From Escherichia coli (GTDB lineage Bacteria; Pseudomonadota; Gammaproteobacteria; Enterobacterales; Enterobacteriaceae), in the NCBI RefSeq assembly GCF_002854065.1, contig NZ_CP024147.1: a DNA stretch of 64,000 bases; one strand, 5' to 3'. How positions within the stretch are numbered: position 1 is the first letter of the stretch; every line of letters begins with the position of its first letter. Shown one piece after another: positions 731 to 2,706 of this stretch. A model generated the notes under the pieces. It searched no databases and had not been told where the DNA came from. It was given only the letters and a program-made list of their open reading frames with translations. The position numbers and the translations under genes are program-made.

Positions 731-1630
731 GTGGCGCTACTTATCATCACCACGATTCTGTGGGCCTTCTCCTTTAGCTTTTATGGCGAGTACCTTGCGG
801 GGCACGTCGATAGCTATTTTGCGGTGCTGGTGCGCGTTGGCCTGGCGGCACTCGTTTTTCTGCCGTTTCTGCGTACCCGTGGCAATAGCCTGAAAACAGT
901 CGGCCTGTATATGCTGGTGGGCGCGATGCAGCTCGGCGTGATGTATATGCTGAGTTTCCGCGCTTATCTCTACCTGACGGTTTCCGAACTGCTGCTGTTC
1001 ACCGTACTGACGCCGCTCTACATCACGCTGATTTATGACATCATGAGTAAGCGCCGTCTGCGCTGGGGATATGCTTTTAGTGCCTTGTTGGCGGTGATTG
1101 GTGCCGGGATTATTCGCTATGATCAGGTCACCGACCATTTCTGGACTGGCTTGTTGCTGGTGCAACTCTCCAATATCACTTTTGCCATCGGCATGGTGGG
1201 TTACAAACGCCTGATGGAAACTCGCCCGATGCCGCAGCATAACGCCTTTGCGTGGTTCTATCTTGGCGCGTTCCTGGTGGCGGTAATTGCATGGTTCTTG
1301 CTGGGAAATGCGCAGAAAATGCCGCAAACCACGTTGCAATGGAGCATTCTGGTGTTTCTTGGCGTGGTGGCTTCCGGGATTGGCTACTTTATGTGGAACT
1401 ACGGCGCGACGCAGGTGGACGCCGGAACGCTGGGCATTATGAATAATATGCACGTTCCGGCAGGGCTGCTGGTAAACCTGGCTATCTGGCACCAACAGCC
1501 GCACTGGCCAACGTTTATTACAGGCGCGCTGGTGATCCTGGCCTCACTGTGGGTGCATCGTAAGTGGGTCGCTCCGCGCTCTTCACAAACGGCAGATGAT
1601 CGCAGGCGTGATTGCGCGCTGAGCGAATAA
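731..1630 (+). CDS. yigM: EamA/DMT-family membrane transporter YigM (biotin transporter BioP)
   Basis: 299-aa hydrophobic multi-TM ORF with GTG start; 3' end overlaps the convergent metR. Confidence 0.8.
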
Positions 1631-2471
1631 ATGCTTCTGTAATCGGCTGACGCTGCTCGCCATCGCGCACGGCGGCGTACAGCCGGCTCCACAAGCCTTC
1701 GCCCAGGGTTTTTGTCACCACCAGATCCTGGCGCTCAAAACTCTCTACTACCCAATGTGGTAGCGCGGCAATACCCATCCGCGCGGCAACCATCTGAATC
1801 AACAATAAGGTGTTATCGACGCTTTTCAGTGACGGGCTGACGCCTGCCGGCTGAAGAAAATGCCGCCAGACATCCAGTCGGCTACGCTGCACCGGATAAA
1901 TCAACAGCGTCTCGCTGGCGAGATCTTCCGGTGTAATACGCGTTTTTGCCGCCAGTGGATGGTCAGGTGCTAACACCAGGCGTACTTCATAATCGAACAT
2001 CGGCGAATAATGCAGGCCACTGCGCGGCAGGATATCGGAGGTCATCACCAGATCCAGCTCGCCCTGTTGCAACGCGGGCTGCGGGTCAAACGTCACGCCC
2101 GATTTAAAATCCATCTCTACCTGCGGCCAGTTCTTATGGAAATTTTCTAACGCGGGTGTCAGCCACTGAATACAGCTATGGCACTCAATGGCAATGCGCA
2201 GACGCGTCTGCTGCGGTTCATTGCAGGCTTGCAGTGCCTGGCTGATTTGCGGCAGCACCTGGTTTGCCAGTTGCAACAGGATTTCTCCCTGCGGTGTAAA
2301 GCGTAGCGGCTGGCTCTTACGCACAAATAGCCGGAAGCCAAGGCGTTGTTCCAGATCGCTAAACTGGTGAGACAGGGCGGATTGCGTCTGATGCAACGTC
2401 GCCGCAGCGGCTGCGAGAGAGCCGCAGTTCCGCAACGCTTGTAGCGTTTTCAGGTGTTTTACTTCGATCAT
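1518..2471 (-). CDS. metR: LysR-family transcriptional activator MetR
   Basis: 317-aa ORF with N-terminal HTH ([36 protein letters not shown]); divergent from metE. Confidence 0.92.
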
Positions 2472-2706
2472 GAAAGTCCTTCACTTCGGCATGAATAATT
2501 TGCGCTTGAGGAATATACAGTAACCGCCAATTATGGATGTGTAAACATCTGGACGGCTAAAATCCTTCGTCTTTTAAATTTATGGTGCGTTGGCTGCGTT
2601 TCTCCACCCCGGTCACTTACTTCAGTAAGCTCCCGGGGATGAATAAACTTGCCGCCTTCCCTAAATTCAAAATCCATAGGATTTACATATAATTAGAGGA
2701 AGAAAA
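2472..2706. promoter_or_regulatory. metR-metE divergent control region with degenerate tandem MetJ boxes (about 2545..2572) and expected MetR site
   Basis: Intergenic between divergent metR and metE; acatctggacggctaaaatccttcgtct resembles repeated AGACGTCT met boxes. Confidence 0.45.

What the first reader, a model, noticed from the sequence alone, without database searches (positions are those of the whole stretch)
1518..1630. Convergent 113-bp overlap between the yigM and metR coding regions
The yigM ORF on the plus strand ends at 1630 while metR on the minus strand ends at 1518, so the two 3' ends overlap by about 113 bp. Either the yigM C-terminal extension is real, or the true yigM stop lies earlier and this reflects a read-through or start-choice issue. 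As far as I recall the same overlap exists in K-12.
Basis: partly seen in the sequence, partly recalled or inferred. Interest (0 to 1): 0.15.

Follow-up and report, generated by a model that had tools for sequence, protein, structure and literature searches.

The report
Known bioP–metR tail-to-tail gene overlap
The biotin transporter gene bioP (yigM) and the methionine regulator gene metR of E. coli really do share their last 113 bases on opposite strands, but this is a known, ancient and harmless arrangement: each protein's floppy, dispensable tail is read off the back of the other gene's last essential segment.

Summary
Confirmed and ordinary. In this E. coli window bioP/yigM (731-1630, +, 299 aa) and metR (1518-2471, -, 317 aa) overlap tail-to-tail by 113 nt. 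RefSeq annotates the same overlap in K-12, and the literature has remarked on it. The 3' ends are fixed by in-frame stop codons, so start choice or an "earlier stop" cannot explain it.

Of 76 Enterobacterales species with both genes adjacent, 60 keep an 86-119 nt overlap. Serratia and Erwiniaceae lack it because DNA was inserted at one point, window ~1577-1584.

Four independent lines place a sharp boundary at ~1576/1577:
- codon-position variability
- pN/pS in each frame
- insertion breakpoints
- domain, PDB and AlphaFold limits

Left of the boundary only the BioP frame is under purifying selection; MetR residues 299-317 ride along. Right of it only the MetR frame is; BioP residues 283-299 ride along. 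Both tails are low-confidence in AlphaFold, are replaced or missing in the non-overlapping lineages, and BioP's is truncated in natural Salmonella alleles.

Resampling synonymous codons of each partner reproduces both tail lengths as the most common outcome. BioP's stop is forced by MetR Phe281-Ile282. The region is therefore not dual-coding in the selective sense. Low interest.

The parts
731..1630 (+). bioP (yigM) CDS, 299 aa, biotin transporter of the DMT/EamA family (10 predicted TM helices)
   Evidence: ORF; Pfam EamA and TIGR00950; RefSeq annotation; AF2 model with pTM 0.80 and ten helices.
1518..2471 (-). metR CDS, 317 aa, LysR-type regulator of metE/metH
   Evidence: ORF; HTH_1 plus LysR_substrate and NF011950 (738 bits, 1-317); RefSeq annotation; PDB 5FO5 is E. 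coli MetR residues 1-92.
1518..1630 (.). 113-nt convergent CDS overlap, phase 123:132 (codon position 1 opposite 1, 2 opposite 3, 3 opposite 2)
   Evidence: Coordinates; phase worked out from the coordinates; overlaps of 86-119 nt in 60 of 76 species loci.
1518..1576 (+). Segment A: selected for BioP (end of TM10 and the HRKWVAP motif, aa 263-282). The opposite strand encodes the unselected MetR tail, aa 299-317.
   Evidence: Variability sits at BioP codon position 3 (entropy 0.74/0.55/1.25 for positions 1/2/3). pN/pS is 0.43 in the BioP frame and 1.50 in the MetR frame. MetR pLDDT is about 30 from residue 299 on. The MetR stop position wanders, giving overlaps of 86-119 nt.
1577..1630 (-). 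Segment B: selected for MetR (last helix and the [18 protein letters not shown] motif, aa 281-298). The + strand encodes the unselected BioP tail, aa 283-299.
   Evidence: Variability sits at MetR codon position 3 (0.54/1.09/0.37 in BioP numbering). pN/pS is 0.31 in the MetR frame and 1.74 in the BioP frame. BioP pLDDT is below 50 only at 283-299. N. meningitidis MetR (PDB 4AB5) aligns up to aa 296. The motif is retained in lineages without the overlap.
1577..1584 (.). Junction between the two conserved cores, and the place where insertions are found
   Evidence: Serratia oryzae aligns to window 1382-1577 and 1584-1778 with about 75 extra nt in between. S. plymuthica and 14 Erwiniaceae loci break at 1509-1567 on the left and 1584-1591 on the right, with one exception at 1645.
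1626..1631 (-). MetR Phe281-Ile282 codons (TTT-ATT), whose complement contains the bioP stop (TAA at 1628-1630; it would be TGA if Phe were TTC)
   Evidence: Read from the sequence. In 20,000 synonymous resamplings of MetR the BioP frame never ran past this point. BioP ends at the same register in nearly all overlap-bearing loci; Proteus penneri and two others end 3-27 nt away.
1518..1520 (-). metR stop codon (TAA), antisense to the BioP Ile262/Thr263 codon junction
   Evidence: Sequence. Its position varies between lineages, giving overlaps of 86, 95, 98, 104, 113, 116 and 119 nt.

Best explanation
This is a genuine, ancient tail-to-tail overlap of two unrelated, functional genes. It is best described as 'tail over core'.

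The conserved bodies of BioP (through TM10, about aa 282, window 1576) and MetR (through its last helix and the LPFV motif, about aa 296-298, window 1578-1584) abut almost exactly. There is no spacer between them. Each ribosome therefore reads on into the antisense strand of the other gene until it meets the first in-frame stop. BioP gains 17 extra residues and MetR gains 19.

These tails are translated but evolve as by-products of the partner's sequence. BioP's stop is dictated by MetR Phe281-Ile282, and MetR's stop falls wherever BioP's TM10 codons allow. No nucleotide is demonstrably under purifying selection for both proteins; at most about 5-15 nt around 1566-1583 could be.

Basis of each step. 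Shown here: both ORFs, their conservation, the switch of the selected frame, the insertion breakpoints, and the null model for the tail lengths. Inferred: the overlap was ancestral to Enterobacterales and was lost twice by insertion at the junction; the original overlap arose by loss of the spacer or of stop codons (the stop-codon-mutation model); the tails have no function. From the literature: the two mRNAs overlap in vivo.
For: 1. Both genes are real and the overlap is annotated in K-12.
2. 60 of 76 Enterobacterales species loci overlap by 86-119 nt. These include Enterobacteriaceae, Yersinia, Rahnella, Pectobacteriaceae and Morganellaceae.
3. Per-site entropy across 62 loci flips from a BioP-position-3 pattern to a MetR-position-3 pattern between the 1561-1575 and 1576-1590 bins.
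4. pN/pS is 0.43 (BioP frame) against 1.50 (MetR frame) in 1520-1576, and 1.74 against 0.31 in 1577-1627.
5. Serratia carries 75-115 nt inserted between window 1577 and 1584. Erwiniaceae carry a DUF1456 gene inserted at the same junction. In both, BioP ends 1-14 residues after the HRRW motif while MetR keeps FIRSARQHACEHLPFVRDA followed by an unrelated tail.
6. Pfam domains end at BioP aa 275 and MetR aa 288. PDB 4AB5 aligns to MetR aa 296. AF2 gives pLDDT below 50 for BioP 283-299 and MetR 299-317.
7. Distant BioP homologues have unrelated tails of 0-23 aa, median 9.
8. A Salmonella BioP allele of 285 aa (66 member sequences) sits beside an intact 317-aa MetR. A 284-aa allele has 42 member sequences.
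9. Synonymous resampling of the partner gene gives the observed tail lengths as the mode: 63% for MetR's 19 codons and 64.5% for BioP's 17 codons.
10. The phase 123:132 and the read-through origin match the stop-codon-mutation model, which fits E. coli convergent overlaps (PMC2174442).
Against: pN/pS in the tail frames (1.5-1.7) is lower than in the control antisense frames outside the overlap (3.0-3.2). This could reflect weak selection on the tails, or simply the weaker constraint on the owning frame there (0.31-0.43 against 0.16).

MetR keeps a loosely conserved 'A-x-R-P-G/N' up to about aa 302 even without the overlap, so a few nucleotides near 1566-1583 may serve both proteins.

The MetR AF2 model is poor overall (mean pLDDT 60.6).

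No ribosome-profiling or proteomic data were examined, so translation of the tails is inferred from the ORFs.

The ancestral-state inference relies on family relationships taken from general knowledge, not from a tree built here.
Confidence: 0.85

Rival explanations
1. True dual coding. Both C-terminal tails are functional, and the 113 nt are under simultaneous selection for both proteins, for example a MetR Pro-rich tail used in co-activator response or oligomerisation, or a BioP cytoplasmic tail used in regulation.
For: Tail lengths are very stable: BioP is 299 aa in 110 of 120 clusters and MetR 317 aa in 75 of 120. Tail-frame pN/pS (1.5-1.7) is below that of the control antisense frames (about 3). 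A weak RP(G/N) motif in MetR persists without the overlap.
Against: The length stability is reproduced by a null model that knows only the partner's protein sequence. Tail-frame pN/pS is above 1. The codon-position variability shows a single owner on each side of 1576. The tails are replaced or lost in Serratia and Erwiniaceae and in natural Salmonella alleles. They are low-pLDDT.
Confidence: 0.07
2. Regulatory excludon. The overlap is kept because convergent, overlapping transcription lets bioP and metR repress each other through transcriptional interference or RNase III cleavage of the mRNA duplex. This would couple biotin uptake to methionine/SAM status.
For: No intrinsic terminator was found in or near the overlap, so the transcripts must extend into each other. 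ExcludonFinder lists bioP-metR among the 165 convergent excludons seen in at least 50% of 58 E. coli transcriptomes (PMC12288877). The arrangement is conserved across most of the order.
Against: Transcript overlap is unavoidable once the CDSs overlap, so it is not evidence of regulation. No reciprocal-expression data for this pair were found. Erwiniaceae tolerate a whole gene between the two, and Serratia a spacer. The sequence conservation within the overlap is fully accounted for by the two protein frames.
Confidence: 0.06
3. Annotation or sequence artefact. One of the two 3' ends is wrong because of a frameshift, a sequencing error or a mis-set stop, and the genes do not truly overlap.
For: Long convergent overlaps are sometimes artefacts. 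Early literature, as I recall it (not checked here), gave a shorter Salmonella MetR.
Against: The same ORFs occur in the window, in K-12 and across 5,422 E. coli genomes, and in about 60 other species from independent assemblies. Stops are read directly from the sequence. Start choice cannot affect 3' ends. The Keio delta-metR strain phenocopies delta-yigM, which its authors attribute to the overlap (PMC5120140).
Confidence: 0.02

Closest known systems
Convergent (tail-to-tail) overlapping genes generated by stop-codon loss and read-through (stop-codon-mutation model; Lillo & Krakauer 2007, PMC2174442)
   Same: Two opposite-strand CDSs share their 3' ends. The phase is 123:132, the commonest phase for E. 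coli convergent overlaps longer than 4 bp (46% observed, 39% expected). Each tail length equals the distance to the first stop in the partner's antisense frame, as that model predicts.
   Different: At 113 nt it is far longer than the modal 4-nt overlap. It has been stable across an entire bacterial order, and here the position of the selective boundary could be mapped to within a few nucleotides.
Excludons (overlapping transcription of neighbouring opposite-strand genes; ExcludonFinder, PMC12288877)
   Same: bioP-metR is listed in the E. coli 'excludome' on RNA-seq coverage criteria. No intrinsic terminator separates the two genes.
   Different: Classical excludons overlap in long UTRs and show mutually exclusive expression. 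Here the overlap is in the coding sequence, and no reciprocal regulation has been shown or tested.
Dual-coding or overprinted regions of phages and viruses
   Same: The same nucleotides are translated in two frames.
   Different: In those systems both frames are functional and selected. Here each nucleotide shows the signature of selection in one frame only. The frames are on opposite strands, and the by-product peptides are short, low-confidence tails.

Membership tests
Convergent CDS-CDS overlap between two bona fide genes | Two ORFs on opposite strands whose 3' ends, stop codons included, share nucleotides | tested here: met
   731-1630 (+) and 1518-2471 (-) share 113 nt.
Convergent CDS-CDS overlap between two bona fide genes | Both ORFs are real protein-coding genes (family membership and conservation) | tested here: met
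   BioP matches EamA/TIGR00950 and MetR matches NF011950. Thousands of homologues were found. pN/pS is 0.16 in the non-overlapping parts of both genes. BioP's function is from PMC5120140.
Dual-coding region (selection in both frames) | Purifying selection on both reading frames over the same nucleotides | tested here: not met
   pN/pS is 0.43 against 1.50 in 1520-1576 and 1.74 against 0.31 in 1577-1627. The codon-position entropy has one owner per side. A residual zone of about 5-15 nt near 1566-1583 cannot be excluded.
Excludon | Overlapping transcripts from neighbouring opposite-strand genes | not testable with these tools
   Literature only: bioP-metR is in Table 1 of PMC12288877. The absence of a terminator-like site is consistent with it.
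Excludon | Mutually exclusive expression or RNase III processing of the duplex | not tested
   No data for this pair were found in the papers read.
DMT/EamA 10-TM transporter (BioP) | Two EamA repeats, ten TM helices, and a C-terminus after TM10 | tested here: met
   Pfam EamA with 2 stretches, the best at 139-275. The AF2 model has ten helices, pTM 0.80, and pLDDT below 50 only at 283-299.
LysR-type transcriptional regulator (MetR) | N-terminal HTH_1 domain plus a LysR substrate-binding domain | tested here: met
   HTH_1 at 5-63 and LysR_substrate at 86-288. PDB 5FO5 and 4AB5 match residues 1-92 and 87-296.

The most novel reading that the evidence does not exclude
The order-wide persistence of the CDS overlap is not mere inertia. 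It reflects selection for antisense coupling of biotin uptake (bioP) with the methionine/SAM regulon (metR), for example through RNase III cleavage of the 113-bp or longer mRNA duplex or through polymerase collision. Biotin synthesis consumes SAM, so mutual exclusion could be adaptive.
Probability: 0.06. Interest if true: 0.4.

Novelty: already known. Interest (0 to 1): 0.1.

Why it matters
Mostly as a caution and a clean textbook case. Practically, deleting or recoding either gene hits the other. The Keio delta-metR strain behaves like a biotin-transport mutant (PMC5120140), and a synonymous change at MetR Val296 (GTG to GTT) would create a stop in BioP. Conceptually, it shows that a long, deeply conserved CDS overlap need not be dual-coding. 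The apparent conservation of each tail, for example BioP's '...DRRRDSALSE', is a shadow of the partner's selected frame. It would mislead anyone who reads conservation as function. No open question is advanced.

Tried and rejected
1. Overlap resolved by tandem duplication in Serratia. Self-comparison of the junction found no significant direct repeat, so only 'an insertion of 75-115 nt at the junction' is claimed.
2. Intrinsic terminators inside the partner gene. None lies near the overlap; the one site, at 1917-1905 (-), is within chance expectation.
3. A structured RNA or sRNA in the overlap. Rfam at E<=1 finds nothing between 600 and 2500.
4. P0243, an apparently 57%-identical BioP that still overlapped metR, turned out to be a Dickeya-like sequence with a garbled middle. 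It was dropped as an independent deep lineage.
5. The MetR frameshift variant P0126 (323 aa, Citrobacter braakii) looked like a natural indel at the junction. That assembly also splits metE and bioP, so it is probably assembly error and was not used.
6. The literature search 'yigM + metR' returned mostly noise (magnetometers, 'metric'), apart from Cote et al. 2016.
7. BioP relatives at about 50% identity (P0245, P0246) are not next to metR. No adjacent-but-non-overlapping outgroup was found beyond Enterobacterales.

Full report
**1. The observation**

The window is E. coli. The 2-kb stretch 600-2600 is 100% identical to strain 100416 and is present at >=95% identity in 5,422 of 5,426 complete E. 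coli genomes. The mechanical ORF list gives 731-1630 (+, GTG start, 299 aa) and 1518-2471 (-, 317 aa). The first ORF is an EamA/DMT transporter (Pfam EamA; TIGR00950, 307 bits). The second is MetR (HTH_1 plus LysR_substrate; NF011950, 738 bits over residues 1-317). The shared stretch 1518-1630 is 113 nt and includes both TAA stops. RefSeq annotates exactly this overlap in the identical strain and in K-12 MG1655 (bioP 4011076-4011975, metR 4011863-4012816).

**2. It is already known**

Cote et al. 2016 (PMC5120140) identified yigM as the biotin transporter BioP. [quoted passage not shown] They attribute the bioA-synthetic-lethal and MAC13772-sensitive phenotype of the Keio delta-metR strain to concomitant disruption of yigM. 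ExcludonFinder (PMC12288877) lists bioP-metR among the 165 convergent 'excludons' seen in at least 50% of 58 MG1655 transcriptomes.

**3.

A 3' end is set by the first in-frame stop, which is physically present. Start-codon choice cannot move it. There is no earlier in-frame stop in either gene.

**4. Comparative anatomy**

BioP is 299 aa in 110 of the 120 closest 90%-identity clusters. MetR is 317 aa in 75 of 120 and 311-312 aa in 30 more. Context look-ups showed the same overlap in Yersinia (113 nt) and Dickeya (98 nt).

A scan of one genome per species returned 80 Enterobacterales loci. For each I located both ORFs and their stops.
- 60 loci overlap: 35 by 113 nt, 13 by 116, 7 by 95, 2 by 98, and one each by 86, 104 and 119. 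They cover Enterobacteriaceae, Yersinia, Rahnella, Rouxiella, Pectobacteriaceae and Morganellaceae.
- 16 loci do not overlap: two Serratia species (gaps of 4 and 36 nt) and 14 Erwiniaceae-type loci (508-1,074 nt spacers).
- 4 loci lack metR in the DNA held.

BioP's stop keeps the same register in nearly all overlap-bearing lineages, whereas MetR's stop wanders.

In the non-overlapping lineages BioP ends 1-14 residues after the HRRW motif, with unrelated sequence. MetR keeps FIRSARQHACEHLPFVRDA and then carries an unrelated tail.

BioP homologues at 35-50% identity from elsewhere have unrelated post-TM10 tails of 0-23 residues, median 9, against 20 in E. coli. Two of the closest of these (about 50% identical) that I looked up are not next to metR.

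**5. Who owns which nucleotide**

The phase is 123:132: position 1 faces position 1, BioP position 3 faces MetR position 2, and BioP position 2 faces MetR position 3.

Across 62 overlap-bearing loci, the mean column entropy at BioP codon positions 1/2/3 is as follows:

| Region | Window coordinates | Entropy at BioP pos 1/2/3 |
|---|---|---|
| BioP only | 1381-1517 | 0.45 / 0.32 / 1.24 |
| Overlap, left part | 1518-1576 | 0.74 / 0.55 / 1.25 |
| Overlap, right part | 1577-1630 | 0.54 / 1.09 / 0.37 |
| MetR only | 1631-1780 | 0.38 / 1.21 / 0.27 |

In 15-nt bins the pattern flips between 1561-1575 and 1576-1590.

Pairwise Nei-Gojobori pN/pS tells the same story:

| Region | BioP frame | MetR frame |
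|---|---|---|
| 1520-1576 | 0.43 | 1.50 |
| 1577-1627 | 1.74 | 0.31 |

As controls, the true frames outside the overlap give 0.16, and the fictitious antisense frames there give 3.0-3.2.

So left of ~1576 only BioP is selected, and right of it only MetR. The apparent conservation of BioP's '...[14 protein letters not shown]' is the shadow of MetR's [16 protein letters not shown]. The recurring 'P-T-x-x-P-x-S-P' of MetR is the shadow of BioP's TM10.

**6. Independent boundaries agree**

- Pfam domains end at BioP aa 275 (window 1555) and MetR aa 288 (window 1608).
- The solved N. meningitidis MetR regulatory domain (4AB5) aligns to E. coli residues 87-296, i.e. down to window 1584.
- AlphaFold2 on a 47-sequence alignment gives a confident BioP model (pLDDT 82, pTM 0.80). 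Its only segment below 50 is 283-299, which starts at window 1577.
- The MetR model is weak overall (pLDDT 60.6). It ends its last helix at residue 292 and is about 30 from residue 299 on, which also starts at window 1577.
- Serratia oryzae DNA aligns to window 1382-1577 and 1584-1778, with about 75 extra nt in between. S. plymuthica has about 115 extra nt. Erwiniaceae break at the same place and carry a DUF1456 gene in the spacer.

The junction at 1577-1584 is thus the place where insertions have been tolerated.

**7. No selection is needed to explain the overlap length**

I held each partner's protein sequence fixed and resampled its synonymous codons 20,000 times.
- The MetR frame runs 19 codons past residue 298 in 63% of samples. 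This is both the observed value and the median.
- The BioP frame runs 17 codons past residue 282 in 64.5% of samples. This is the observed value, and it never runs longer.

The reason for the second result is that MetR Phe281 (TTY) followed by Ile282 (ATH) is T-R-A on the other strand, which is always a stop.

Conversely, a silent MetR change at Val296 (GTG to GTT) would create TAA at BioP codon 285. Salmonella alleles of 284 aa (42 member sequences) and 285 aa (66 member sequences) exist. The 285-aa allele sits next to an intact 317-aa MetR, which reduces the overlap to 71 nt.

This behaviour is what the stop-codon-mutation model predicts. That model fits E. coli convergent overlaps, and 123:132 is their commonest phase (PMC2174442).

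**8. History (inference)**

The overlap occurs in Morganellaceae, Pectobacteriaceae, most Yersiniaceae and Enterobacteriaceae. It is missing only in Serratia and Erwiniaceae, which are nested lineages according to established family relationships (not tested here). The simplest reading is a single ancestral overlap and two later insertions at the junction.

**9. Transcription**

No terminator-like hairpin lies in or near the overlap; one site at 1917-1905 is within chance expectation. No Rfam family matches there. The convergent mRNAs must therefore be complementary over at least 113 nt, consistent with the RNA-seq-based listing. Whether this has regulatory consequences is untested. The fact that Erwiniaceae tolerate a gene between the two argues against a strict requirement.

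**10. Caveats**

- Tail-frame pN/pS (1.5-1.7) is lower than in the control antisense frames (about 3). I attribute this to the weaker constraint on the owning frame near both C-termini, but weak selection on the tails is not excluded.
- MetR keeps a loose A-x-R-P-G/N up to about residue 302 in non-overlapping lineages, and BioP is conserved to about residue 280-282. About 5-15 nt may therefore be doubly constrained.
- Translation of the tails is inferred, not observed.
- The pairwise statistics are not phylogenetically corrected.

**11. Verdict**

The overlap is real, exact, conserved and already described. Mechanistically it is a 'tail-over-core' convergent overlap without dual selection. It has practical relevance for knock-outs and recoding and little novelty.

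Noticed in passing
L050:3688-4167 (-), and the equivalent spacers of L049, L056, L058-L060, L062, L064-L066, L070, L084, L087: In Pantoea and Erwinia a gene for a DUF1456 protein of about 160 aa (Pfam E = 4e-56) sits between bioP and metR, on the metR strand, at the junction where the two genes overlap in other Enterobacterales. The Mixta locus (L063) has a 508-nt, 38% GC spacer without a full-length copy.
   Followed up: partly
window 2512-2686 (-), the metR-metE intergenic region: Weak, sub-threshold Rfam matches to Ysr49 (27.7 bits against a gathering score of 95) and V_AS5 (26.7 against 96). They are probably chance or reflect the conserved metE leader or operator region.
   Followed up: no
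H12 = NZ_CP159632.1 2012458-2014498 (E. coli Z135-6): One of the E. coli genomes listed covers only 43% of the query, in two pieces. It is annotated 'hypothetical protein | LysR family transcriptional regulator' instead of metR, which suggests that metR is interrupted in that strain.
   Followed up: no
window 731 (bioP start): bioP is annotated with a GTG start, 75 nt after the yigL stop. Some databases hold N-terminally extended gene calls of 324-328 aa (P0042, P0060, P0082), which are probably mis-set starts.
   Followed up: no
L089 (Citrobacter braakii GCA_900460935.1): The assembly shows metE, bioP and metR all split or frameshifted. The 323-aa 'MetR' (P0126) is most likely an indel error in the assembly and not a natural variant.
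   Followed up: partly
window 1399-1692 (-): A third, 97-aa ORF spans the overlap in another minus-strand frame. Frameshifted database 'MetR' variants (P0126 in particular) read into this frame. There is no evidence that it is a gene.
   Followed up: no
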